Shown here: positions 11,448 to 63,070 of the stretch, in pieces
Numbering within the stretch: the stretch's first letter is position 1
Layout of the letters: every line of letters begins with the position of its first letter
Assembly (NCBI GenBank): GCA_964524915.1
Contig: CAZGEB010000002.1
Span: 5,094 to 69,093 of the forward strand
Direction: 5' to 3'
Source: an uncultured Candidatus Saccharibacteria bacterium
GTDB lineage: Bacteria > Patescibacteriota > Doudnabacteria > UBA920
DNA: 64,000 bases
Position numbers and translations under genes: made by a program
The notes under the pieces: model-generated
What the model saw: only the letters and a program-made list of their open reading frames with translations
Told to the model about the DNA's origin: nothing
Database searches by the model: none

Positions 11448-12377
11448 ATGCAAAATTTCGTACCCCAATCCACCGGCGATTTCGAGCTTTTAGATTCAGG
11501 CATGTCCATGCGCCTAGAGAAATGGGGGCAGTATACTTTGTCACGCCCAGACCCACAAGCCATTTGGCAACCTTCTCTTCCCAAAGAAGAATGGGAAAAA
11601 GCTGATGCGGTTTTTGACGATGGCTGGAAAATAAAAAATAAAATCCAGCAACCTTGGGTGTATAAGTACAACCTCTCTGCCCCAATCAAAGCATCGGGGC
11701 ATCTCCCCTCACAAGGAGAGAGTATAAGGTTGTTCGCAAGGCTCACGGCTTTTAAACACACTGGTATTTTTCCAGAGCAAGCCTACAACTGGCAATGGCT
11801 TTCCCACAAGCTAAAAGCTATAAGCTATAAGCTAAAAATCCTCAACCTCTTCGCTTACACAGGTGCTACCACTTGTCTACTAGCTAGCCTTGGCTGCCAG
11901 GTAACTCATGTTGATGCATCAAAACCCTCTATTGAGTGGGCGAAAAATAATGCGAAGCTGAATAATCTCCCAGAAGATAGTATCCGCTGGATTTTAGATG
12001 ATGCGGCCAAGTTTGTAAAAAGAGAAATTAGGCGTGGGGCCGAGTACGACGGCATCATCATGGACCCGCCTGCTTTTGGGCACTCCCCTAGTGGTAAAAC
12101 TTGGAAATTTTCAGAAAATTTACCAGAACTGCTTTCCGATTGCATAAAGCTCTTGAGCCCACATGCACAATTTTTGATAATCAATGCCTACGCCACCAAC
12201 ACTTCTAGCATTGCGCTACAAAATTTATTAGAAGACAGCTTGCCCCCTCCCCTTCTGAGGGGAGGGTTGGGGAGGGGTGGTATTGAATCAGGCGAACTTT
12301 TACTTGAGCAAAAAAATAAACGCCTGCTATCCACAGGCATTCTCGCTAGATGGTCAAAACACACTAATCACAACTAA
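11448..12377 (+). CDS. class I SAM-dependent methyltransferase (RlmI/RlmK-like rRNA methyltransferase fold)
   Basis: FAYTGATTCLLASLGCQVTHVDASK...DGIIMDPPAFG. Carries an in-frame heptamer repeat (11806-11835) and a GC-rich palindromic insertion (12241-12290). Confidence 0.7.
   Translation: MQNFVPQSTGDFELLDSGMSMRLEKWGQYTLSRPDPQAIWQPSLPKEEWEKADAVFDDGWKIKNKIQQPWVYKYNLSAPIKASGHLPSQGESIRLFARLTAFKHTGIFPEQAYNWQWLSHKLKAISYKLKILNLFAYTGATTCLLASLGCQVTHVDASKPSIEWAKNNAKLNNLPEDSIRWILDDAAKFVKREIRRGAEYDGIIMDPPAFGHSPSGKTWKFSENLPELLSDCIKLLSPHAQFLIINAYATNTSSIALQNLLEDSLPPPLLRGGLGRGGIESGELLLEQKNKRLLSTGILARWSKHTNHN
12241..12290. repeat. GC-rich palindromic element (ccccctcccc-ttctg-aggggaggg-tt-ggggagggg) in frame in methyltransferase CDS
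   Basis: Reverse orientation of the CCCTCCCCTCAGAAGGGGAGGGG core. Encodes PPPLLRGGLGRGG. Confidence 0.6.
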
Positions 12378-13747: not shown

Positions 13748-14293
13748 CTACACTTCTTGTCTGTTTGCCACAAATCGGCCAAACACGACCAGGAAAATCA
13801 CAGGAGAGACCAACCAAAAAACTTTTGCCCCTGCATACAAAAACACTTGTTGTACCAAAGGTGCAAACCCGTCCCTTACAGGCCCAGGCAAATAACCCAA
13901 AACTATACTTGTCAGCAAGCCGACCTGCAAAACCGAAAAAATAATTATAAAAATCAACCCCACCCCCCTGCCTTCAGCCGAAAGCTTGAAAGCGTGCTTG
14001 GAAAGTGCTAGAAAAATTATCACGAACAAAACCCCAAACACTACTAAATTTTGCAAATCCCCATCTGCGACTGACAGTCTTTCTGCCACCATTTTGTGCA
14101 ACCATGGCACCTCAAGAGCAAGCAACCTGGATACATAAATAGCAATCAAAAGCCCAAGCACTCTTCCCCTACCAGCAGAAAATGCATAGAGAATAGAAAC
14201 ACCCAGCCACCCCAAAAGAATAAATAGGCTCCAAGAAGGCTGGCTCCAATTAAAACCCCTCACTAAATTTTCAACATGACTAAAATCCAACAT
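13748..14293 (-). CDS. CvpA-family membrane protein
   Basis: 181 aa with four TM segments, resembling CvpA (colicin V production) topology. Confidence 0.55.
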   Translation of the reverse strand: MLDFSHVENLVRGFNWSQPSWSLFILLGWLGVSILYAFSAGRGRVLGLLIAIYVSRLLALEVPWLHKMVAERLSVADGDLQNLVVFGVLFVIIFLALSKHAFKLSAEGRGVGLIFIIIFSVLQVGLLTSIVLGYLPGPVRDGFAPLVQQVFLYAGAKVFWLVSPVIFLVVFGRFVANRQEV

Positions 14294-14354
14294 AAATATA
14301 TTATACCATTAATTTAGTGGTATAATATATTTGTATTATTAAAATAAATAAAGT

Positions 14355-27639: not shown

Positions 27640-28536
27640 TTATAACGAATCTCGAATTTTCTTTAAGATTTTTACATCCTCTTTCACTCTATCATGATCA
27701 GTTTCCAAAATCAATGGAAAAGTAATGTCATTCTTACTCTTTGAGAGAAGACTGTCAAGAGCTTTCAAAAAGGCCATTATTCCAGCCTTTCCAAGCTTCC
27801 CTTGCCCTATATGTTCATGCCTATCTTTGTGACTACCTAGCTCCACTTTACTGTCATTTACGTGCGACATGCGTAGAAACTTCAGTCCAATAATTTTATC
27901 AAACTGTTTCAAAACTTCGAGCGCTGATTTTTCTGTACGCAAATCATAACCGCTACCAAAAGCATGCTGAGTATCAAAACAAATTCCCCCAAAACCTTTT
28001 TTGCCAACTAGCGGCTTCATCAAATCTCTAACTTCTTCAAAAGTATCGCCCAAGACAGCTCCCGCACCTGCAGAAATTTCTATAAGCAACTCTGTAGTGC
28101 CTTTGTAATTTTTCAAAACTTCCACCAAACCTTTTTGTGCTTGCGCAAATCCTTTTTCTTCATTGTCTTTTAAACTTCCCGGATGGAACATGACAAACTT
28201 TGCACCCAGCAATGTGCCACGCTCCAATTCATCTCGCACTATAGCAATAGAAGATTTATAAGTAGCGGGCTTTGGTGAACCAAAGTTGATGTAATAAGGC
28301 GCATGAATAACAAAGCACGCCCCCTCTCCTTTTGAGGAGAGGGATGGGGAGAGGTTGTATTTCCCAGTCTCCCCTCTAAACTGTTCCAAAACTTCTTTGG
28401 TCAATTTCGGAGCTGGACCTCCCTGAGGTGAACGAGAAAATATTTGAAAAGTCTCGCAGCCCAAAGCCGCCGCCATTTTCGGCGCATTAAATACTCCTCC
28501 CGCAATACTCACATGACAACCTATTTGAAATTTCAT
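27640..28536 (-). CDS. nfo: endonuclease IV (AP endonuclease, Nfo)
   Basis: MKFQIGCHVSIAGG..HAPYYINFGSP..LIEISAGAG..FDTQHAFGSGYDL..HVNDSK. Carries an in-frame GC-rich palindromic insertion (28321-28385) encoding GETGKYNLSPSLSSKGEGA. Confidence 0.85.
   Translation of the reverse strand: MKFQIGCHVSIAGGVFNAPKMAAALGCETFQIFSRSPQGGPAPKLTKEVLEQFRGETGKYNLSPSLSSKGEGACFVIHAPYYINFGSPKPATYKSSIAIVRDELERGTLLGAKFVMFHPGSLKDNEEKGFAQAQKGLVEVLKNYKGTTELLIEISAGAGAVLGDTFEEVRDLMKPLVGKKGFGGICFDTQHAFGSGYDLRTEKSALEVLKQFDKIIGLKFLRMSHVNDSKVELGSHKDRHEHIGQGKLGKAGIMAFLKALDSLLSKSKNDITFPLILETDHDRVKEDVKILKKIRDSL
28321..28385. repeat. GC-rich palindromic element (CCCCTCTCC-TTTTG-AGGAGAGGG-AT-GGGGAGAGG...CTCCCCTCT) inside nfo
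   Basis: Inverted G/C arms in an AT-rich gene; the reading frame is maintained. Confidence 0.6.
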
Positions 28537-28988: not shown

Positions 28989-29040
28989 CCCCTCCCTTGA
29001 TCCCTCCCCTCAGAAGGGGAGGGGTTTAAGACACAAACTG
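28981..29040. repeat. GC-rich palindromic element (CCCCTCCC-TTGAT-CCCTCCCC-TCAGAA-GGGGAGGGG) between the DUF559 and M16 peptidase genes
   Basis: Canonical copy of the family, at the 5' end of the DUF559 gene and over the C-terminal codons and stop of the M16 peptidase gene (29026). Confidence 0.6.
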
Positions 29041-42651: not shown

Positions 42652-42724
42652 AAACAATCCGAAAATTTTAGGGTTGTTTTTTTAATCTTCACAAAAACGC
42701 CTAGTCTTTTGCTATAATAAACAA

Positions 42725-43147
42725 ATGAGCACAGACAAACTAGAAATCCGGCCCAAACAATCTAAATACAAACTTCGGGCAAAAAAATCTTCAGCTGGAC
42801 TTGGACTTTTTACAGATAGTGAAATACCAAAAGGAGCACAAATTATTCAGTACGGTGGCTACAAGCTTACAAATGAACAAGCAGAAAAAAAGGGCGGCAA
42901 ATATTTATTTGAAGGAGTAGACGATAAATTTACCATAGACGGTACACCCAGATGGAACATAGCTAGATATATCAACCACTCTTGCAAACCCAACGCCGAA
43001 GCTATTTGGTACGGCAATCAAGTTTTTATTTGCTCCAAAAGAAAAATCAAGCCAGGAGAAGAGATTACCTACCACTACGGCAAAGACTATTACAATATTC
43101 TTTTGGGTGGCAAAAAAGGCTGTAAATGTCTAGAGTGTAAAAAATAA
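42725..43147 (+). CDS. SET-domain protein (protein-lysine methyltransferase-like)
   Basis: NHSCKPN and the post-SET GCKCLECKK; 140 aa. Confidence 0.8.
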   Translation: MSTDKLEIRPKQSKYKLRAKKSSAGLGLFTDSEIPKGAQIIQYGGYKLTNEQAEKKGGKYLFEGVDDKFTIDGTPRWNIARYINHSCKPNAEAIWYGNQVFICSKRKIKPGEEITYHYGKDYYNILLGGKKGCKCLECKK

Positions 43148-46260: not shown

Positions 46261-46270
46261 CAAAAAACAA

Positions 46271-46306
46271 AAGGATCCCCTATATTTTATAAGGGATCCT
46301 TTTAAA
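46271..46306 (+). terminator. intrinsic terminator after msrB
   Basis: aaggatccc-ctatattttataa-gggatcctt followed by ttaaaat. Confidence 0.65.
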
Positions 46307-46331
46307 ATCCAAAATTTGCTATACTAGGCTC

Positions 46332-47684
46332 ATGAGAAAATACTTTATTTATTTATTTGGGCTAATAAATTTAAGTCTTATCTTTTATTTCTGGGCGGCA
46401 AACTCCTGGCATCTTTTAAGCCAAGACCGTGCCAGTATAAATCTGGCCATAGGCAGGCTTTCCGGTTTACTGCTGGTTTCTTGTATCTTACTGCAATTTC
46501 TCATCATGAGTCGTGCCCCTGCCTTAGAGCAAACTTTCGGGCTAGACAAGCTCTCCCGTCTACACCATTTCATTGGCAAATACCTGGTCATAATATTTTT
46601 ATTTTGCCATGTACTACTTATAACGATCGCCTATGCAAGCTTTAGCGAGCGCGGGTTTTTCTCTCAATACCTAGGTTTTCTGAAATTTGAGGACCTACCA
46701 AATGCCATGATTGCTCAATGGCTGTTTATTTTTGTGATTATTTATTCCATTTTTATGGTGCTCAAAAAATGGAATTTTGAAAAATGGTACTACGCACACC
46801 TCTCAGTTTATATAGCCATCATCCTCGCCTTCGGTCATCAACTAGAACTCGGTGGTGACTTTGCGGAAAGTAAAATCTTCACCTGGTACTGGTACCTACT
46901 CTATGCCTTTGTTGCCCTAATGCTGGCAATATACCGCTTTGGAAAACCCTTATGGCTGTTTTATAAACATCGCTTTTATATAGAAAAGATAATAGCCGAG
47001 ACTCCAGATGTAACTTCTGTATATATTTCTGGCAAACAAATGGATAAATTCAAATTCCATCCCGGACAATTTGTCATAGTGAGATTTTTGGATAAACAAA
47101 GGCGCTGGCAAGCCCACCCTTTTTCTCTGTCGCAACCTTTTAACGGACAGAATATCCGTCTCTCTATAAAAGCCTCTGGCGACTTCACCTCTCAAGCCTC
47201 ACTCCTCACTCCTCACTCCTCACTCCTAATTGAGGGCCCCTATGGTGTCTTTACTCCTAATAAATTGAAAAATAATAAAGCACTGCTCATCGCGGGCGGT
47301 ATTGGCATTACCCCTATCCGCGGAATAATGGAGGCTTTAGGCGAGAATAAAAAAGAAGCCATACTACTCTACGCCAACAAAACAGAAAAAGATATTGCCC
47401 TGCGTGAAGAAATAGAAAAACTTGGAGAAAAATACCACTTCCCAATTCACCACATACTAAACAACCAGCCCAAGTCTCCCAATCTCAAGTCTCAAGTCTC
47501 AAGCCTCATCACTATACACGATGGTATGATAAATCAAAATCTCATACAGTCTGAGGTAGATGATATCACGCACTGGGAGGTATTCCTTTGTGGTCCCCCA
47601 CCCATGATGACCGCTATCACAAAAGTTTTAATCGCCTTGGGTGTCCCCAAACAAAGTATTTACTTTGAAAGATTTAGTTTGTAA
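46332..47684 (+). CDS. NOX-like ferric-reductase-domain flavocytochrome (TM heme domain + FAD + NAD(P)H-binding domains)
   Basis: Six TM helices with paired His, HPFSLS (FAD), GGIGITP (NAD). Carries two in-frame heptamer tandem repeats. Confidence 0.7.
   Translation: MRKYFIYLFGLINLSLIFYFWAANSWHLLSQDRASINLAIGRLSGLLLVSCILLQFLIMSRAPALEQTFGLDKLSRLHHFIGKYLVIIFLFCHVLLITIAYASFSERGFFSQYLGFLKFEDLPNAMIAQWLFIFVIIYSIFMVLKKWNFEKWYYAHLSVYIAIILAFGHQLELGGDFAESKIFTWYWYLLYAFVALMLAIYRFGKPLWLFYKHRFYIEKIIAETPDVTSVYISGKQMDKFKFHPGQFVIVRFLDKQRRWQAHPFSLSQPFNGQNIRLSIKASGDFTSQASLLTPHSSLLIEGPYGVFTPNKLKNNKALLIAGGIGITPIRGIMEALGENKKEAILLYANKTEKDIALREEIEKLGEKYHFPIHHILNNQPKSPNLKSQVSSLITIHDGMINQNLIQSEVDDITHWEVFLCGPPPMMTAITKVLIALGVPKQSIYFERFSL
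47191..47225. repeat. heptanucleotide tandem repeat (CACTCCT)x4-5 in frame inside the NOX-like gene
   Basis: Encodes SLLTPHSSLL between the FAD and NAD subdomains. Confidence 0.85.
47471..47500. repeat. heptanucleotide tandem repeat (CAAGTCT)x3 in frame inside the NOX-like gene
   Basis: ctcaagtctcaagtctcaagcctc encodes NLKSQVSSL. Confidence 0.8.
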
Positions 47685-47687
47685 GAA

Positions 47688-48383
47688 ATGAACAAGCACT
47701 CCAGAATAGTGAAAGAGCACTTTGATATTAAGTACAAAGACTACGACTCGCTCATCAAAAAACTCATACCCAAATACACCACCATGCACAAAAAGGCTGT
47801 AGGGGCCTTGCTTTCCAAAATGCCAAAACAAAGCAATATTTTAGACTTAGGTATTGGCACCGGACAAACTGCCCTAGAAATTTTAAAATCACAGCCTCAA
47901 TGTAAAATATTTGGCATAGACATTTCTTCGGGCATGATAAAACAAGCTCAAGACAGACTTTTAGAGTATAAAAAACAAATCCGATTCTTAAATCAAGACA
48001 TCAATAATCTAAAGATCAAACATAGATTTGAAGGCTGCATTTCCGTGCTATGCATCCACCATTTAAACGAAAAACAAAAATTGAAATTATTTCGTAAAAT
48101 ATTTTCCTCCCTAAAATCCCAATCCACTTTCGTCATAGCAGACCTGGTAAACTTCCCCACCACCAAAGAAACCAGACAAATAGAAAATAAATGGAAGAGG
48201 TATCTGTATAACGGACTAGGTAAAAAGCAAGGCGAATACTGGTTTCAAAATTATTTAGAAGAAGACCTACCCAGCTCCACACCAGAGCAAATTCACTGGC
48301 TTAAAAAAGCAGGGTTTGTAAATGCTGATTGCATTTGGAAACATCTAAATTATGCGGTGATAGTAGCCAAAAAACCTCAATAA
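47688..48383 (+). CDS. class I SAM-dependent methyltransferase
   Basis: Motif I ILDLGIGTGQTAL; post-I IFGIDISSGM. Confidence 0.7.
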   Translation: MNKHSRIVKEHFDIKYKDYDSLIKKLIPKYTTMHKKAVGALLSKMPKQSNILDLGIGTGQTALEILKSQPQCKIFGIDISSGMIKQAQDRLLEYKKQIRFLNQDINNLKIKHRFEGCISVLCIHHLNEKQKLKLFRKIFSSLKSQSTFVIADLVNFPTTKETRQIENKWKRYLYNGLGKKQGEYWFQNYLEEDLPSSTPEQIHWLKKAGFVNADCIWKHLNYAVIVAKKPQ

Positions 48384-48406
48384 TTCGCCTTAAATAAGCG
48401 GAGCAT

Positions 48407-48435
48407 TTGACTATTTCTATAAAAAGTGATATAAT
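48407..48435 (+). promoter_or_regulatory. consensus sigma-70 promoter TTGACT-17-TATAAT
   Basis: ttgact atttctataaaaagtga tataat; near-perfect hexamers with a 17-bp spacer. Confidence 0.55.
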
Positions 48436-48467
48436 ACGTTATTGTTGAATAATTAATATTCACCTGA

Positions 48468-48503
48468 ACCAGCCATGGTATTTTAACTGGCTGGTTTTTA
48501 TTT
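48468..48503 (+). terminator. terminator-like hairpin about 30 nt downstream of the 48407 promoter (possible attenuator or tiny sRNA)
   Basis: aaccagcca-tggtattttaac-tggctggtt followed by tttatttac. Confidence 0.45.
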
Positions 48504-48540
48504 ACAATTTTGAGTCTCTATGTTGTGTTATTATTAGATT

Positions 48541-49953
48541 ATGAAAATCACTTTCAATGGAGCAGCACTAAATGTGACAGGCTCTAAACATTTGATAGAA
48601 ACCAACGGACTCAAGATCCTTTTTGATTGCGGATTACACCAAGGCAAAAGAGCAGAAACCACTGCAAAGAACCGCTCTTTCCCCTTCAATCCAAAAGAAA
48701 TTGATGCGGTAATCTTGTCTCACGCCCACGCAGACCATTGTGGTATGTTGCCGCTACTGGTCAAACAAGGATTTTCTGGAAAAATATATGCCACTCCCGC
48801 CACGCGTGACATTGCCGAGTACATCATGCTGGACTCCAGCCATATCCAAAAACAAGACGCGGAGTATTTCAACACTCACCTACCAGAAGGAGATCAGCCC
48901 ATAGAGCCCATATATGACGATGAGGATGTAAAAGCAGCCCTAGCCCAATTTGAACCAGTTGAGTATTTTTTGCATTCAGGGAAATGGACTAGTATCTCTA
49001 AAACTGTAAAATTTAAATTTTTGGACGCAGGTCACATCCTTGGATCCAGCATAGTTGTGCTGACCTCCCAAGAGGGCAAAACAGATAGCCATAAAAAAAC
49101 CATAGCTTTTTCCGGTGACCTCGGTGGTAGGGCCAAACCCCTACTCAGAGACCCAGAAATTATCGAGGAACCACTAGATGCTTTTCTCCTTGAATGCACC
49201 TACGGCAACCATACCCATAGGCCTTTGAGATTTGCCAAACAAGCACTAGCAGATTTAATTAATCGCGCGGTCAAACACAAACAAAAGATTTTGGTGCCGG
49301 CTTTTGCCTTGGGTAGAACTCAAGAAATCATCTATATACTCCACCAACTCACAGACAGCAGACAAATCCCTCGCATCCCTATTTACATAGACAGTCCGCT
49401 CGCCTCACACATTACCAAAGTTTTTGAAGGGTACAATGAAGAATACGATGCAGAAAGCTGGAGAGATTTTTCACGCAAAGGTGAGCCACCTTTTTCTTTT
49501 ACCAATTTGAACTACACACAAAGCCCGGAAGAGTCCAAAGAGCTCAATACTCTCGAGGGGCCGTGGATGGTAGTATCATCTTCTGGCATGTGCGAAGCCG
49601 GTAGAATCCTCCACCACCTCAAAAATCACATCACTGACCCGGATACCATAATAGCTTTCACTGGCTACCAAGCGGAACACACGCTTGGAAGAAAAATTTT
49701 GACCGGACAATCCCCAGTAAAAATTTACGGGCAATACATGGACGTCAAAGCTCAAGTAGAAGTCTTTAACGAATTCTCCGCTCATGCAGACCAATCAGGG
49801 CTACTAGACTACCTCAAAATGATCCAAACTCAAAAAGTTTGTCTAGTGCACACAGAAGAGCCCCAGGCACAAGAATTTAAAGCTGTTTTGGCAGAAAAAA
49901 TGCCGGAAATCAATGTAATAATCCCAGAAGACAGGGAGTCCCTGGATTTATAG
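48541..49953 (+). CDS. MBL-fold beta-CASP ribonuclease (CPSF/RNase-J-like family)
   Basis: HAHADHCG, the beta-CASP region, and C-terminal RNA-specificity domain pattern. Confidence 0.75.
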   Translation: MKITFNGAALNVTGSKHLIETNGLKILFDCGLHQGKRAETTAKNRSFPFNPKEIDAVILSHAHADHCGMLPLLVKQGFSGKIYATPATRDIAEYIMLDSSHIQKQDAEYFNTHLPEGDQPIEPIYDDEDVKAALAQFEPVEYFLHSGKWTSISKTVKFKFLDAGHILGSSIVVLTSQEGKTDSHKKTIAFSGDLGGRAKPLLRDPEIIEEPLDAFLLECTYGNHTHRPLRFAKQALADLINRAVKHKQKILVPAFALGRTQEIIYILHQLTDSRQIPRIPIYIDSPLASHITKVFEGYNEEYDAESWRDFSRKGEPPFSFTNLNYTQSPEESKELNTLEGPWMVVSSSGMCEAGRILHHLKNHITDPDTIIAFTGYQAEHTLGRKILTGQSPVKIYGQYMDVKAQVEVFNEFSAHADQSGLLDYLKMIQTQKVCLVHTEEPQAQEFKAVLAEKMPEINVIIPEDRESLDL

Positions 49954-50057
49954 AGTATTGACGAAACCTGAGCTTCGGCGGTAAAATACATACCGTGTTT
50001 TTTAAACACCTCAAGCGGGGTGTTTATTGTTTGGCGAATAATTTAATACTAAAAAAT

Positions 50058-53633: not shown

Positions 53634-54986
53634 TCAATAGTAATCTCTCAACTTTTTGGTTTCTGGATGAGCTTTGATTTTTTCTAGAGCCTTAAATTCA
53701 ATCTGACGAATACGCTCACGAGTCACTCCAAATTCAGCGCCCACTTCTTCCAAAGTATGTTCTATATTATCATCCAAACCAAAACGCATACGCAAAACTC
53801 TTTGCTCTCTTGGGTCTAGCTCCTGCATGACCACCTGTGTGTAGGCTTTTAGCAGTTGCCTACCCGCAACCTCATTTGGACGACTCTGTACGTCATCTGC
53901 GGCGATCATATCACTCAAAGCAGATTCGTCTTCGTTGTCTGCGCTAATTGGAGAGTCTATGGAAACAGTGTCCTGAGAAATCTTTCTCAAATGATAAACC
54001 TTTTCCACATCAATACCCATTTCAGCAGCAATCTCTTCTGCCAGAGGTTCTCTTCCTAAATCTTGCACCAACTGTCTTTCTGCTTGAAAATATTTATTCA
54101 AAGTCTCTACCATGTGCACTGGAATGCGGATGGTACGAGACTGATCAGCCAATGCGCGAGTAATAGCCTGACGAATCCACCAAGTAGCATAAGTAGAAAA
54201 TTTATAGCCCTTTGTATAATCAAACTTCTCTACTGCGCGAAATAATCCCAAGTTTCCTTCTTGAATCAAATCAAGCAGGCTTAAATTTCTGCCGTTATAT
54301 TTTTTTGCGTTGGACACCACCAAACGCAAATTCGCCTCTGTCAATCTTTTCTTCGCCGCCACATCACCCTTGGCAATCCTCTTTGCCAGCTCTATTTCTT
54401 CTGTAGCAGAAAGCAACGGCACCTTACCAATTTCACGCAAATACATCTGAACAGAGTCATCATAAATATCCCCAAGGTCATAGGCCTCTGGCATCTCAAC
54501 TGACTTCTTGTTTGTAGATCCTTTTGCTGGTACCGATTGTTCCCACACACCAGCCACCTCCTGATCTACCACTTCTATGCCATTTCTCTCAAGTTCAGAC
54601 AAAATTCTTTCCAGAGCCACCACATCCTCTTCCAGCTTTGGCAGCACGTGCAAAACTTCTGCTTCAGTAATAAAAGAACGCGTTTGACCCTTCTTGAGCA
54701 AACTCTGTAAAGCTTTCATGTGCTCAGCATCCAAAGGCACAGACGGTGGCAAAACCACCTTTCGGGCAGTCTTAGTTTTATTTACAGAAGCTTTCACGGA
54801 CTTCTTTTTATTATTTTTTCTCACGGCAGAAGCTTTTGTCTTTGCGGTAGCCTTATGTGAACCAGAAACAGATTTATGAATCGGCTTCTTCTTTGCAGGC
54901 TTCGCCTTTTTGTGCACCTTCAAAACAGCCTTTTTATTTTTCAAAGGTTTTTTTGAAATTGCTTTCTTGGCCATCTTTTTTACCAT
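53634..54986 (-). CDS. rpoD: RNA polymerase sigma factor RpoD (sigma-70) with Lys-rich N-terminus
   Basis: Regions 2.x ([13 protein letters not shown]) and 4.2 ([19 protein letters not shown]). Confidence 0.95.
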
Positions 54987-59278: not shown

Positions 59279-60604
59279 ATGACCAAACTTAAACCCTCCA
59301 AAAAAACCATTTATTTAGACCACGCGGCTACTACCCCAATCCGCGAAGAAGTCTTGCGCGTGATGAAGCCATATTTTGCAGAAAAATTTGGTAACCCTTC
59401 TAGTCTTTACAAGCTGGGAGTAGAAGCAAAGAATGCAATAGAGGATGCTAGAAAATCTATTGCGGAGAATCTAAACGCCAGAGCAGAAGAAATCATTTTT
59501 ACCGCTGGAGGTAGTGAGAGTGTAAATTTGGGAATACTTGGAGTTGCCAAGAATCACAAAGCAAAACAACCTCTCTCTATCTCTCCCCTCACAAGGCGAG
59601 AAAACCGGAAAAGAACGCACGGACACATCATCACTTCCAAAATAGAGCATCATGCTGTATTAAATACATTAGAACAACTGGAAAAAGAGGGCTTTGCCGT
59701 GACACAAATCAGTGTGGACAATGAAGGTTTTTTTGATATTGAAGAATTTAAAAAAGCTATCCGCCCAGATACTTTTCTGGTAAGTCTCATGTACGCCAAT
59801 AATGAAATAGGCACCATAGAGCCTATCCGTGAAATTTCAAAAATAATCAAACAGGAAAATCTACACCGCTTCCAACTAAAAACTAAAAACTCTCAACTAA
59901 AAACCCCCATCCTCCTCCACACCGACGCCTGCCAAGCAGCTGGCTTTTTGGATCTAAATGTGCAAAGACTTGGCGTGGACCTAATGAGCATCAATGCCAG
60001 TAAAATCTACGGCCCCAAACAAATTGGTTGCTTGTATGCAAAAAAAGGGATCGCCCTCTCCCCTATTATTTTTGGGGGCGGGCAAGAAAGAAATCTCAGG
60101 AGCGGTACAGAGAATGTTGCAGGCATAGTTGGTTTTGCTAAAGCTTTGGAATTGGCGGCTTTGGAAAGAGATAAAGAGGTACAGAGACTAGAGAAATTAA
60201 GGGATTATTTATTTAAAGAAATAATTAAAATAAATAAAAACTCTGTTTTAAATGGTCCGAGTATCGCAAATACAACCTCTCCCCTAACCCCTCTCCTCAG
60301 AAGGCGAGGGGAAACAGGTCGCCGCCTACCAAATAATTTAAATATTACATTTCCAAATGCTGAAGGTGAAGCGCTCATGCTTTACTTGGATGCTTACAAT
60401 ATCGCAGTTTCCACAGGGAGCGCCTGCACGGCCTACGAAACTGACCCTTCTCATGTACTGAAAGCTGTTGGGTTAAGCGATGAGGATGCCAAATCTAGCC
60501 TGCGCATCACATTGGGAAAATCTACCAACAAAAAAGATTTAGAGTACTTTATAAAAGCCCTCAAAGAAACTCTCGAAATAGTTTCAAAAAATACAGTTGC
60601 GTAA
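59279..60604 (+). CDS. iscS: cysteine desulfurase (IscS/NifS family) carrying two in-frame repeat insertions
   Basis: LDHAATTP, PLP-Lys SINASKIYGPKQIG, active Cys STGSACTA. Insertions at 59571-59610 (SISPLTRRENRKRT) and 60271-60320 (TSPLTPLLRRRGETGRRL). Confidence 0.9.
   Translation: MTKLKPSKKTIYLDHAATTPIREEVLRVMKPYFAEKFGNPSSLYKLGVEAKNAIEDARKSIAENLNARAEEIIFTAGGSESVNLGILGVAKNHKAKQPLSISPLTRRENRKRTHGHIITSKIEHHAVLNTLEQLEKEGFAVTQISVDNEGFFDIEEFKKAIRPDTFLVSLMYANNEIGTIEPIREISKIIKQENLHRFQLKTKNSQLKTPILLHTDACQAAGFLDLNVQRLGVDLMSINASKIYGPKQIGCLYAKKGIALSPIIFGGGQERNLRSGTENVAGIVGFAKALELAALERDKEVQRLEKLRDYLFKEIIKINKNSVLNGPSIANTTSPLTPLLRRRGETGRRLPNNLNITFPNAEGEALMLYLDAYNIAVSTGSACTAYETDPSHVLKAVGLSDEDAKSSLRITLGKSTNKKDLEYFIKALKETLEIVSKNTVA
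59571..59610. repeat. degenerate GC-rich palindromic element (CTCTCCCC-TCACAA-GGCGAG) in frame in iscS
   Basis: Related to CCCTCCCCTCAGAAGGGGAGGG. Confidence 0.5.
60271..60320. repeat. GC-rich palindromic element (CTCTCCCCT-AA-CCCCTCTCC-TCAGAA-GGCGAGGGG) in frame in iscS
   Basis: Same TCAGAAGG loop as the 28981 copy. Confidence 0.6.
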
Positions 60605-61189: not shown

Positions 61190-63070
61190 TTACACTTCTA
61201 TAATCACCGGTAAGACCATGGGTCTACGATTGGTTTTGTGGAAGAGATACTCGCCCACTTGATCGCGAATCAAATTTCTGAGATAAGCAGAACCAGGCTC
61301 ATTAGCATCTTTAGGCTTCGCACCTTTCACTTCACAAGTCTTTCGTACTTCATGCTTGATCTCGCGGATGATATCTTCATTGCCCTTCATATAAATGAAG
61401 CCTCTAGAGACAATATCCGGCAAGTTGATTAGTTTTCCTGTGTGATGATCTATGGTAGTAATGATCACTACCATACCATCTTTTGCCATGACTTGGCGGT
61501 CCCTCAAAACCACTTCTTCTACATCCCCCACGCCAAGACCATCTACAAAGACATAACCAGCCTCCACTTTGTCATCCAAAAGTTTGGCTGAGCCGTCGCT
61601 GCGAATTTCTAGGACAGAGCCGTTATCCATCACAAAACAATTTTCTTGTGGTATGCCCACACTTTGCGCCAGCTTAGTATGCGCCACCAGCATGTGGTGT
61701 TCACCGTGAATTGGCACGAAGTATTTAGGTTTTACCAACCCAAACATCATTTTCAATTCTTCTTGCTGACCATGACCAGAAGAGTGAATATCTAGAACTT
61801 TATTATAAATCACATTGGCGCCCTGTCGAGTCAAATTGTCCAAGACCTCCACAATAGAGCCTTCATTGCCAGGAATTGGAGAAGAAGACAAAACTACAGT
61901 ATCACCTTGCTTGATCTTCACAATCTTGTGCTCGCCGCGGGACATTCTGGCCAAAGCAGACATTTCTTCACCTTGGGAACCAGTTGTCAAAACTACCAAT
62001 TGATTGTCTGGATACCTAGAAGCTGCTTCTGATTTAATAAAAATCTTCGGCTGGATCCTGAGGTAGCCCATAGACAAAGCAATTTCTATGGCGTTGACCA
62101 TACTTCTTCCAGTCACAATAATCTTACGATTATGCTTGGCAGCAGCATCACAAACTGATTGGATACGAGAAAGCAGTGATGAGAAAGTTGCTACTATCAT
62201 ACGAGATTTGGCATCTTGCATGATTCTATCAATCACATTTGCTAATTCTTTTTCACTCACACAGTATCCAGGCTTTTCAGCGTTGGTGGAGTCACCCATG
62301 AAAAGTATTACACCTTCGCCGCCGTACTTGGCAATCTTGTCAAATTCAGTTGGTCTTTGGTCAGTTGGTGTGTGGTCAAATTTCCAGTCAGTTGCGTAAA
62401 CTATTTTGCCTATTGGGGTAGAAATTCGGAAACCTACACAGTCTGGAATATTGTGATTCAAGCGGAAAAATTCTACATGAAAAACTCCGAGACTCAAAGT
62501 GTCATCCTTGGTAATAGGATTAACCTTTGCCCTACCCACCATATTAAATTCCTCAAGGCGCTTCTTGATCATAGCAATACTGAGTGGCATGCTATAAATA
62601 GGCGGATCCCCCAATTTTGCCAGCACATAAGGCAAGGCACCAATATGGTCCAAGTGAGCATGAGTCACTAAGATGCCACGAATTTTGTGCTTATTATCTT
62701 CTAAATATTTGGTATTTGGAATGATATAGTCAATTCCAGGAGTAGTTTCGTCTGGAAAATGAAAACCCATATCCACGATAATAATATCGTTACCAAATTC
62801 AAAAGCAGTACAGTTCATTCCCACTTCTTCCACACCACCCAAAGGAATTACCCTCAAAGTATTGCGATTGGTGAGGCCTGCGTGCAAAGTCGCACTAGAG
62901 ACTGGTCTGTCTAGGCCGCCAGCAGTTTTCTGTGTAGGCCTAGTATTTACCCGTCTGGCACTGCGAGTTAAAGGCAGTGGTGGCATTCTACGCTGAGGAG
63001 ACCTCCCCCTCCCATGAGGCTGCGATGGAGATTTTCCTCCTGCAGCAAAAGTATTCTTGTTGAATATCAT
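61190..63070 (-). CDS. rnj: ribonuclease J with ~70-aa Arg/Pro-rich N-terminal extension
   Basis: MBL motif THAHLDHIGALP, beta-CASP and C-terminal domain. N-terminal GRGRSPQRRMPPLPLTRSARR low-complexity extension. Confidence 0.9.
   Translation of the reverse strand: MIFNKNTFAAGGKSPSQPHGRGRSPQRRMPPLPLTRSARRVNTRPTQKTAGGLDRPVSSATLHAGLTNRNTLRVIPLGGVEEVGMNCTAFEFGNDIIIVDMGFHFPDETTPGIDYIIPNTKYLEDNKHKIRGILVTHAHLDHIGALPYVLAKLGDPPIYSMPLSIAMIKKRLEEFNMVGRAKVNPITKDDTLSLGVFHVEFFRLNHNIPDCVGFRISTPIGKIVYATDWKFDHTPTDQRPTEFDKIAKYGGEGVILFMGDSTNAEKPGYCVSEKELANVIDRIMQDAKSRMIVATFSSLLSRIQSVCDAAAKHNRKIIVTGRSMVNAIEIALSMGYLRIQPKIFIKSEAASRYPDNQLVVLTTGSQGEEMSALARMSRGEHKIVKIKQGDTVVLSSSPIPGNEGSIVEVLDNLTRQGANVIYNKVLDIHSSGHGQQEELKMMFGLVKPKYFVPIHGEHHMLVAHTKLAQSVGIPQENCFVMDNGSVLEIRSDGSAKLLDDKVEAGYVFVDGLGVGDVEEVVLRDRQVMAKDGMVVIITTIDHHTGKLINLPDIVSRGFIYMKGNEDIIREIKHEVRKTCEVKGAKPKDANEPGSAYLRNLIRDQVGEYLFHKTNRRPMVLPVIIEV

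What the first reader, a model, noticed from the sequence alone, without database searches (positions are those of the whole stretch)
48407..48503. Near-consensus promoter immediately followed by a terminator hairpin upstream of the beta-CASP nuclease gene
TTGACT-17-TATAAT followed about 30 nt later by a perfect 9-bp stem plus T-run would give a transcript of about 55-60 nt. This is either a tiny sRNA or a transcription attenuator/riboswitch-like leader controlling the RNase gene. The hairpin contains CCATGG (an ATG in the stem), compatible with occlusion of a start codon.
Basis: seen in the sequence. Interest (0 to 1): 0.5.

Follow-up and report, generated by a model that had tools for sequence, protein, structure and literature searches.

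The report
Orphaned leader promoter running into a terminator
The promoter and the hairpin terminator are both real and conserved, but the promoter is most likely left over from a lost antibiotic-resistance-type ABC-F gene and now runs straight into a terminator, rather than being a switch that controls the RNase gene.

Summary
TTGACT-17-TGaTATAAT (48407-48435) is the only near-consensus sigma-70 promoter in the 64 kb. AACCAGCCA/TGGCTGGTT plus a T-run (48467-48503) is one of five terminator-grade hairpin loci.

Comparison changes the interpretation. The organism is a Patescibacterium. In two sister genomes (L026, L027) the identical promoter drives a 31-codon leader ORF, an antiterminator/terminator pair and an ARE-like ABC-F gene. 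More distant genomes (L035, L036) keep the same ABC-F leader module at this locus. The promoter (P1) is therefore the ABC-F leader promoter, and this genome has lost the leader ORF and ABC-F.

A diverged copy of the window-type layout (L033) keeps P1, both stem arms and the T-run unchanged. It changes 11 of 31 bases of the transcribed 5' part and turns CCATGG into CCATCG, so start-codon occlusion fails.

The beta-CASP gene has its own extended -10 (TGtTATTAT) six bases before its ATG. Three other operon-first genes in the window share this leaderless design.

Best reading: an orphaned promoter gives a ~58-nt terminated RNA, and the hairpin insulates the beta-CASP promoter. A minimal attenuator or an sRNA is not excluded. 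There is no expression data.

The parts
47688..48383 (+). Class I SAM-dependent methyltransferase gene (MTase-W). It is the last gene of the upstream ferric reductase-MTase unit, and its stop codon lies 23 nt before the -35.
   Evidence: Pfam Methyltransf_25/31/11. It is replaced by an unrelated MTase (26% aa identity) in L026 and L027.
48371..48436 (+). Conserved 66-nt block: the last 13 nt of the MTase ORF plus promoter P1. It is flanked on both sides by segments that differ between strains.
   Evidence: blastn gives 97% identity to L026 897-962 and 92% to L027 1666-1730, with no similarity on either side. Alignment A2.
48407..48435 (+). Promoter P1: -35 TTGACT (48407-12), 17-nt spacer, extended -10 TGaTATAAT (48427-35).
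   Evidence: There are 0 differences in 29-30 nt among window, L033, L026 and L027, while the 23 nt just upstream differ at 2-5 positions. The -10 TG(A/G)TATAAT is also invariant in the ABC-F leaders of L035 and L036.
48436..48466 (+). Start of the P1 transcript (predicted start about 48441-48443). This 5' part is poorly conserved and has no AUG. It contains TTG TTG AAT AAT TAA (48442-48456).
   Evidence: 11 of 31 positions differ in L033. The central 15 nt differ at 2 positions, both third-codon and synonymous in that frame, against 9 of 16 in its flanks. There is no significant similarity to the L-type leader.
48467..48503 (+). Intrinsic terminator: stem AACCAGCCA/TGGCTGGTT, 12-nt loop, U-run UUUAUUU.
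   Evidence: In L033 both arms and the T-run are unchanged, and all 3 changes fall in the loop at unpaired or bulge positions.
48497..48519 (+). T-run plus 20 nt downstream (TTTATTTACAATTTTGAGTCTCT), fully conserved in L033. Its role is unknown. It could be terminator-distal sequence or the upstream region of P2.
   Evidence: 0 of 23 differences.
48526..48534 (+). Predicted promoter P2 of the beta-CASP gene: extended -10 TGtTATTAT, 6 nt before the ATG. This implies a leaderless mRNA.
   Evidence: Three other operon-first genes have the same TGnTAnnnT-N6-ATG layout, at 42725, 46332 and 14293(-). L033 has TGtTATGAT-N6-ATG. L036 has TGtTATGAT and L026/L027 have TGgTATGAT upstream of beta-CASP, each after a hairpin.
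48541..49953 (+). beta-CASP ribonuclease gene (TTHA0252 type). It has no Shine-Dalgarno sequence.
   Evidence: Pfam Lactamase_B, Beta-Casp and RMMBL. PDB 2dkf (Ribonuclease TTHA0252) at E = 4e-83.

Best explanation
P1 is a genuine, strong sigma-70 promoter with a -35 and an extended -10. It is the orthologue of the promoter that, in sister Patescibacteria, transcribes the leader of an antibiotic-resistance-type (ARE-like) ABC-F gene. That leader carries a leader peptide and an antiterminator/terminator pair, the architecture of ribosome-mediated attenuation.

In this genome the leader ORF, the antiterminator and the ABC-F gene are gone. P1 now fires into about 25 nt of unconstrained sequence and then a conserved intrinsic terminator. 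It should give a constitutively terminated, non-coding RNA of about 58 nt, plus whatever reads through.

The hairpin's main job is ordinary. It ends the upstream ferric reductase-MTase transcript and the P1 transcript. That insulates the beta-CASP RNase gene, which is transcribed as a leaderless mRNA from its own extended -10 promoter P2 six bases before the ATG.

Shown: the sequence elements, their non-random occurrence, their conservation pattern, the ABC-F leader module in relatives, and the leaderless promoter layout in this genome.

Inferred: that P1 fires, that the hairpin terminates, that P2 is the beta-CASP promoter, and that the ABC-F state is ancestral.
For: (1) P1 and the hairpin are each far above chance.

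(2) L026 and L027 have beta-CASP at more than 90% aa identity. They carry the identical P1 followed, after exactly 6 nt, by ATG of a 31-codon ORF. A segment of that ORF pairs with the 5' arm of a strong terminator. The next gene passes the NCBIfam cutoff for 'ribosomal protection-like ABC-F' (417.9 against 380 bits).

(3) That leader differs at about 5 of 170 nt between L026 and L027, while fourfold-degenerate sites in beta-CASP differ by 23%. The leader is therefore constrained.

(4) The outgroups L035 and L036 (ABC-F about 50% identical to L026's) also have ABC-F upstream of beta-CASP at this locus; in L035 it lies between ferric reductase and beta-CASP. They share the -10 TGnTATAAT, the leader-peptide core IRxG....AVxVLGK, the invariant GGGCTGTTTTnGTATTGGG and the terminator. 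The ABC-F state is thus ancestral, and P1 belongs to it.

(5) In the window type there is no AUG after P1, and the 5' 31 nt change at 35% between window and L033. P1 (0/30), the stems (0/18) and the T-run plus the following 20 nt (0/23) do not change.

(6) A terminator followed by an extended -10 precedes beta-CASP in the window type, and a hairpin followed by an extended -10 does so in L026/L027 and L036. Inside the window, the intergenic region 46261-46331 has the same hairpin then TGcTATACT-N6-ATG layout.

(7) The genome encodes a primary sigma factor with regions 2, 3 and 4.

(8) ARE ABC-F genes are typically controlled by leader-peptide transcription attenuation: PMC10314930, read.
Against: There is no expression data of any kind.

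P1 is perfectly conserved between the two window-type sequences although its flanks have diverged. A purely useless relic should decay, so P1 may still be doing something.

Only two distinct window-type sequences exist, so the stem shows conservation but no compensatory change.

Downstream of the -10, the window-type segment has no significant similarity to the L-type leader or to the L-type 3' intergenic region. Loss of ABC-F is therefore inferred from outgroup gene order, not from a visible deletion scar.

P2 is a motif-level prediction: 4 of about 66 gene starts carry the motif, against 17 among all ATGs of the window.
Confidence: 0.5

Rival explanations
1. Functional promoter-proximal attenuator. 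P1 is the main promoter of the beta-CASP operon, and the hairpin is a regulated or leaky terminator. The simplest mechanism would be a ribosome sitting on the tiny frame TTG TTG AAT AAT TAA (48442-48456). That frame ends 10 nt before the stem, so a stalled ribosome would cover the 5' arm and block hairpin formation, as described for msrD.
For: P1 is maintained (0/30) in both window-type sequences while its flanks vary. The 15-nt frame shows 2 changes, both synonymous, against 9 of 16 in its flanks. The geometry fits direct occlusion of the terminator by a stalled ribosome (mechanism in PMC10314930). The module descends from a ribosome-sensing leader.
Against: There is no AUG. In L033 the first codon is TTA and the only start-like codon is an internal TTG, with no Shine-Dalgarno sequence. 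There is no alternative antiterminator pairing. The signal rests on one sequence pair (Fisher p about 0.02, my arithmetic). Beta-CASP has its own well-placed leaderless promoter. It is separated from upstream transcription by a terminator-like hairpin in L026, L027 and L036 too. Other relatives have no intergenic region before beta-CASP.
Confidence: 0.2
2. Independent trans-acting small RNA of about 58 nt, with the moderately conserved UUGAAyAAUUAA as its seed.
For: It has its own strong promoter and its own terminator, both conserved. It has no coding capacity. The central 15 nt are better conserved than their flanks.
Against: Most of the single-stranded 5' part is not conserved. There is no Rfam family. 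Complementary sites in the window all carry 2 mismatches in AT-rich sequence, and none sits at a start codon. In sister genomes the same promoter makes an mRNA leader, not this RNA. The element is confined to one very narrow lineage.
Confidence: 0.15
3. Silent consensus look-alike. The promoter does not fire in this organism, and the hairpin is simply the terminator of the upstream operon.
For: An AT-rich intergenic region produces promoter-like hexamers easily: 19 weak matches in 5 kb against 11.7 expected. There is no expression data.
Against: The full pattern is expected 0.07 times per window. It is invariant in four sequences and homologous to the -10 of ABC-F leaders in outgroups. In L026 and L027 it sits exactly 6 nt before an ATG, the leaderless spacing used elsewhere in this genome.
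Confidence: 0.07

Closest known systems
Leader-peptide (ribosome-mediated) transcription attenuators of ARE ABC-F genes (msrD/msrDL, vmlR, vga(A), lmo0919, lmrC)
   Same: P1 is orthologous to the promoter of such a module in sister genomes. Those carry a constitutive strong promoter, a short leader ORF, an ORF segment that can pair with the terminator's 5' arm, an intrinsic terminator and then an ABC-F gene of the ribosomal-protection type (literature PMC10314930).
   Different: In the window the leader ORF, the antiterminator and the ABC-F gene are all absent. Only the promoter remains, followed by an unrelated terminator and a beta-CASP RNase gene.
Canonical intrinsic (Rho-independent) terminator placed between convergently organised operon end and next promoter
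   Same: It has a 9-10 bp stem with 5 G-C pairs, a U-run, and a position at the end of an operon and ahead of the next gene's promoter. Stems are conserved and the loop varies.
   Different: The loop is unusually long at 12 nt, although 2-3 inner pairs can shorten it. A strong promoter sits between the stop codon and the terminator, so the hairpin also ends a 58-nt transcript.
Terminated leader transcripts that persist as small RNAs (for example riboswitch-derived SreA/SreB of Listeria; recalled from memory, not checked here)
   Same: A promoter plus a promoter-proximal terminator gives an abundant short RNA that could act in trans.
   Different: Here there is no ligand-binding or otherwise conserved body, and no evidence of any trans activity.
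Leaderless mRNAs transcribed from extended -10 promoters
   Same: P2 (TGtTATTAT-N6-ATG) and, in L026 and L027, P1 itself (TGaTATAAT-N6-ATG) have the spacing that places the transcription start on the A of the ATG. Most genes in the window lack a Shine-Dalgarno sequence.
   Different: In the window, P1 is not followed by an ATG, so its transcript is not a leaderless mRNA.

Membership tests
sigma-70-type promoter with extended -10 | -35 close to TTGACA, 17 +/- 1 nt spacer, -10 TATAAT, TG one base upstream of the -10 | tested here: met
   TTGACT-17-TGaTATAAT scores 11 of 12 and is unique in the 64 kb.
sigma-70-type promoter with extended -10 | Host encodes a primary sigma factor with regions 2, 3 and 4 | tested here: met
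   Window 53634-54986(-) carries Sigma70 r1.1, r1.2, r2, r3 and r4 and lies next to dnaG.
sigma-70-type promoter with extended -10 | Conservation above the local background | tested here: met
   There are 0 changes in 29-30 nt in four distinct sequences, against 2-5 changes in the adjacent 23 nt. The -10 is invariant in outgroup leaders.
sigma-70-type promoter with extended -10 | Transcription start about 7 nt after the -10 | not testable with these tools
   This needs 5'-end mapping.
Intrinsic terminator | Stable G+C-containing stem directly followed by a U-run | tested here: met
   The stem is 9-10 bp with 5 G-C pairs, folds at -15.1 kcal/mol (z = -3.7) and is followed by UUUAUUU. This class is about 100-fold enriched over shuffles.
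Intrinsic terminator | Stem maintained in relatives while the loop varies, ideally with compensatory changes | tested here: inconclusive
   L033 shows 0 of 18 stem changes and 3 of 12 loop changes, all unpaired. No compensatory pair is available from one diverged sequence.
Intrinsic terminator | 3' ends of RNA at the U-run | not testable with these tools
   This needs Term-seq or 3' RACE.
ARE ABC-F leader-peptide attenuator | Translatable leader ORF between promoter and terminator | tested here: not met
   There is no AUG. Only TTG TTG AAT AAT TAA is present, and its first codon is TTA in L033. The feature is met in L026, L027, L035 and L036.
ARE ABC-F leader-peptide attenuator | Alternative antiterminator pairing that competes with the terminator | tested here: not met
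   Folds of 48442-48503 and of L033 show only the terminator, and the small 5' hairpin is not conserved. The feature is met in L026.
ARE ABC-F leader-peptide attenuator | Downstream ABC-F ribosomal-protection gene | tested here: not met
   The next gene is a beta-CASP RNase. In L026 it is an ABC-F gene that passes NF000355.
Riboswitch or other structured cis-regulatory leader | Conserved structured sensor domain upstream of the expression platform, or a match to a known family | tested here: not met
   Only about 25 nt precede the terminator and 35% of them have changed. There is no Rfam match at gathering score, and the best E-value in the region is 0.42.
Trans-acting sRNA | Own promoter and terminator, non-coding | tested here: met
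Trans-acting sRNA | Conserved single-stranded seed with identifiable targets | tested here: inconclusive
   The central 15 nt match at 13 of 15 between window and L033. No convincing complementary site exists in the window, and the rest of the genome is not available.

The most novel reading that the evidence does not exclude
After loss of the ABC-F gene, the orphaned leader promoter was not left to decay but was exapted. Together with the new hairpin it would form a minimal, selectively maintained control unit for a beta-CASP RNase in a CPR bacterium. That unit would be either a ribosome-occlusion attenuator using a 4-5-codon non-AUG frame, or a small RNA of about 58 nt. The perfect conservation of P1 and the terminator beside rapidly changing flanks is what this reading would explain.
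Probability: 0.2. Interest if true: 0.5.

Novelty: new member of a known kind. Interest (0 to 1): 0.3.

Why it matters
For the window itself the result is modest. It explains an odd promoter-then-terminator order as the footprint of gene loss at a variable locus. It also warns against reading such pairs as riboswitches or sRNAs without comparison to relatives.

The context is more useful than the finding. It reveals a conserved leader-peptide attenuator in front of ARE-like ABC-F genes in Patescibacteria, a group with almost no characterised gene regulation. It also shows a recurrent 'terminator, extended -10, six bases, ATG' layout that predicts leaderless transcription units in this genome.

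If P1 turns out to be retained for a purpose, it would be an example of a regulatory promoter re-used after its gene was lost.

Tried and rejected
(1) Rfam gave only tRNAs at gathering thresholds over the whole window. A permissive scan of 48300-48650 gave only chance-level hits. Scanning L026 and L027 gave nothing at gathering score. The permissive scan of L026 900-1260 gave its best hit, HTH-XRE, at 25.9 bits against a gathering score of 49.8 (E = 0.005); I treat this as noise.

(2) The genome-contig scan with the beta-CASP protein found a best match of 59% identity and no close relatives.

(3) The metagenome scan with the promoter pattern TTGACTATTTCT-N7-GTGATATAAT found two unrelated chance matches, L028 and L029.

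(4) I tested whether the window-type segment 48436-48540 descends from the L-type leader or from the L-type 3' intergenic region. MAFFT alignments looked suggestive. Local and anchored alignment scores are no better than shuffles, with p = 0.15-0.97, so I claim no homology.

(5) Start-codon occlusion by CCATGG is rejected, because the motif is CCATCG in L033.

(6) The uORF ATGTTGTGTTATTATTAG (48520-48537) is rejected, because its ATG is GGG in L033.

(7) A minus-strand role is rejected. On the minus strand no T-run follows the hairpin, the minus-strand -10-like TAAAAT lies in the variable loop, and there is no credible minus-strand ORF.

(8) A target search for the putative seed was uninformative.

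(9) Repeat or mobile-element copies of the hairpin in the window: none.

(10) A first dinucleotide-shuffle script timed out. I replaced it with block shuffles.

Full report
**1. What is in the sequence**

The 157-nt gap between a SAM-dependent methyltransferase gene (47688-48383) and a beta-CASP ribonuclease gene (48541-49953) contains four elements in order.
- A promoter, TTGACT (48407-12), 17 nt, TGaTATAAT (48427-35).
- About 31 nt of AT-rich sequence.
- A hairpin, AACCAGCCA (48467-75), a 12-nt loop, TGGCTGGTT (48488-96), followed by TTTATTT.
- A further 44 nt up to the ATG.

The promoter scores 11 of 12 with an extended -10. The pattern TTGACW-N16-18-TATAAT occurs only here in 64 kb, against 0.07 expected.

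The hairpin folds at about -15 kcal/mol, z = -3.7. Perfect stems of at least 9 bp with a T-run occur at 6 strand-sites (5 loci) in the window, against 0.05 in shuffles, and all lie at gene ends.

Rfam has no family here.

**2. Organism and transcription and translation style**

DnaK's best named relatives are Doudnabacteria and Patescibacteria at 77-79% identity. The window also carries RNase J, PNPase, an LCP protein, DnaG and a primary sigma-70 with regions 1.1 to 4.

Most genes lack a Shine-Dalgarno sequence. Four operon-first genes have TGnTAnnnT, exactly six bases, then ATG. They start at 42725, 46332, 48541 and 14293 on the minus strand. This is the geometry of leaderless mRNAs.

The intergenic region 46261-46331 shows a hairpin with a T-run followed by TGcTATACT-N6-ATG. 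The layout downstream of the hairpin under study is the same: TGtTATTAT (48526-34), TAGATT, ATG. I call this promoter P2.

**3. Close relatives**

The beta-CASP protein has only a handful of relatives above 90% identity, and the next are at 66%.

L021, L032 and L034 are identical to the window over the region.

L033 has the same layout but has diverged. The differences between window and L033, by segment, are:

| Segment | Differences |
|---|---|
| MTase 3' end | 1/43 |
| Stop codon to -35 | 4/23 |
| P1 | 0/30 |
| -10 to hairpin | 11/31 |
| 5' arm | 0/9 |
| Loop | 3/12 |
| 3' arm | 0/9 |
| T-run plus the following 20 nt | 0/23 |
| Last 21 nt before the ATG | 3/21 |

The three loop changes are at a bulge, at the apical loop, and at one position that creates an extra pair. 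One of them turns CCATGG into CCATCG. One of the three changes just before the ATG is the least critical position of the P2 hexamer (TATTAT to TATGAT).

The small 5' hairpin predicted in the window is not predicted in L033. The ATG at 48520 is GGG in L033.

Promoter, terminator and P2 therefore behave as constrained elements. The body of the short transcript does not, apart from a central 15 nt with 2 changes.

**4. Sister genomes with a different filling**

L026 and L027 have beta-CASP at 91-95% nt identity. They share the 66-nt block 48371-48436 at 97% and 92%, but nothing on either side of it until 2 nt before the beta-CASP ATG.
- To the left is an unrelated methyltransferase, 26% aa identity.
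- To the right of the identical P1, after exactly 6 nt, comes ATG of a 31-codon ORF.
- A stretch of that ORF (GGCUGUUUUGGUAUUGGGU) can pair with the 5' arm and loop of a strong terminator.
- Next is a 483-513-aa ABC-F protein that passes NCBIfam's 'ribosomal protection-like ABC-F' cutoff, 417.9 against 380 bits.
- It is followed by its own terminator, an extended -10 (TGgTATGAT) and beta-CASP.

The leader differs at about 5 of 170 nt between L026 and L027, while fourfold-degenerate sites differ by 23%. This is the architecture of ribosome-mediated attenuation described for msrD, vmlR, vga(A), lmo0919 and lmrC (PMC10314930).

**5. Direction of change**

Two outgroups have ABC-F proteins about 50% identical to L026's, and each sits on a contig with the same length as that of a beta-CASP homologue at 58-61% identity.
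- L035 has the order ferric reductase, 263 nt, ABC-F, a small gene plus PIN, beta-CASP.
- L036 has ABC-F, then two other genes, then beta-CASP.

Their ABC-F leaders align with those of L026 and L027. Shared features are:
- an invariant -10, TG(A/G)TATAAT;
- a 29-31-aa leader peptide with invariant I-R-x-G-x4-A-V-x-V-L-G-K;
- an invariant DNA core, GGGCTGTTTTnGTATTGGG;
- the terminator.

ABC-F with this leader is therefore ancestral at the locus, and P1 belongs to it. The window type, and independently L022 and L023 where ferric reductase overlaps beta-CASP, have lost ABC-F.

I could not find a deletion scar. Downstream of the -10 the window-type sequence is not significantly similar to any part of the L-type region.

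**6. Interpretation**

The most economical reading has three parts.
- P1 is an orphaned ABC-F leader promoter that now transcribes about 58 nt of non-coding RNA ending at a conserved intrinsic terminator.
- The terminator also closes the ferric reductase-MTase unit.
- Beta-CASP is expressed from P2 as a leaderless mRNA.

A hairpin followed by an extended -10 precedes beta-CASP in the window type, in L026 and L027, and in L036. This argues that insulation of this gene is the conserved feature, not control by P1.

The riboswitch-like and start-codon-occlusion ideas fail on length, conservation and the CCATCG variant.

**7. What remains open**

P1 shows 0 of 30 changes between the two window-type sequences, although the adjacent 54 nt show 15. 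This is unexpected for a useless relic. Using the flank rate, the probability is about 5e-5 (my arithmetic).

Possible reasons are that the short RNA or its read-through is used (rivals 1 and 2), or that the block is homogenised because it serves as a recombination anchor between two strain-variable segments.

The central frame TTG TTG AAT AAT TAA ends 10 nt before the stem and changes only synonymously in L033. That fits a ribosome-occlusion attenuator, but it lacks an AUG and rests on one sequence pair.

There is no expression evidence. All functional statements are inferences from sequence and comparison.

**8. Verdict**

The elements are ordinary, a promoter and an intrinsic terminator, and their odd order is explained by loss of an ABC-F resistance-type gene. 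Interest is low to moderate.

Noticed in passing
L026 940-1136 and 1237-2778; L027 1709-1906; L035 3800-3975 and 4001-5464; L036 55-245 and 264-1757: A conserved leader module sits in front of ARE-like ABC-F genes in Patescibacteria. It has the -10 TGnTATAAT, a 29-31-aa leader peptide with invariant IRxG....AVxVLGK, an invariant RNA core GGGCUGUUUUnGUAUUGGG that can pair with the terminator's 5' arm, and an intrinsic terminator. In L026 and L027 the leader ORF is itself leaderless (TATAAT-N6-ATG). This looks like an undescribed antibiotic-sensing attenuator family in the CPR.
   Followed up: partly
window 42709-42727, 46318-46334, 48526-48543, 14293-14310 (minus strand): Four operon-first genes have TGnTAnnnT, exactly 6 nt, then ATG, and most genes in the window lack a Shine-Dalgarno sequence. 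This suggests widespread leaderless mRNAs from extended -10 promoters in this genome.
   Followed up: partly
window 47688-48540 compared with L026 216-2900, L027 977-3582, L035 3738-6195, L036 1758-3959, L022/L023 3001: The space between the ferric-reductase gene and the beta-CASP gene is a hot spot of gene-content change. It holds two unrelated methyltransferases, ABC-F present or absent, a PIN toxin-antitoxin pair, radical-SAM plus TrmB genes, or nothing at all (overlapping genes). The two methyltransferase genes share only their last 13 nt with the conserved promoter block.
   Followed up: partly
window 48436-48466 compared with L033 960-990: The first 31 transcribed bases after P1 differ at 35% between window and L033. 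The adjacent methyltransferase gene differs at 3.6% (fourfold-degenerate sites 3/66). This local excess of change is unexplained. It could be a recombination mosaic, transcription-associated mutation, or relaxed selection on an older allele.
   Followed up: no
window 12245-12266 (+), 29002-29023 (-), 28322-28343 (+), 60289-60310 (-): A G+C-rich palindrome, CCCTCCCCTTCTGAGGGGAGGG, occurs four times (0-3 mismatches, none expected by chance). Some copies lie inside or at the edge of ORFs. It could be a repeated hairpin element or a repeated coding motif.
   Followed up: no
window 61190-63070 (-) and 48541-49953 (+): The window encodes both a full-length RNase J (with beta-CASP and RNase J C-terminal domains) and the separate TTHA0252-type beta-CASP RNase. 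The latter also scores 6e-124 against the Cas14 (type VII CRISPR) model, but at 414 bits it is far below that model's cutoff of 800.
   Followed up: no
window 49958-50003: The short gap between beta-CASP and the next ORF (a GTG start at 49995) holds TTGACG-18-TAAAAT and a small hairpin, GCGGTAAAATACATACCGT, followed by GTTTTTT that overlaps the annotated start. The start of that 301-aa protein, which has no family match, may be mis-set.
   Followed up: no
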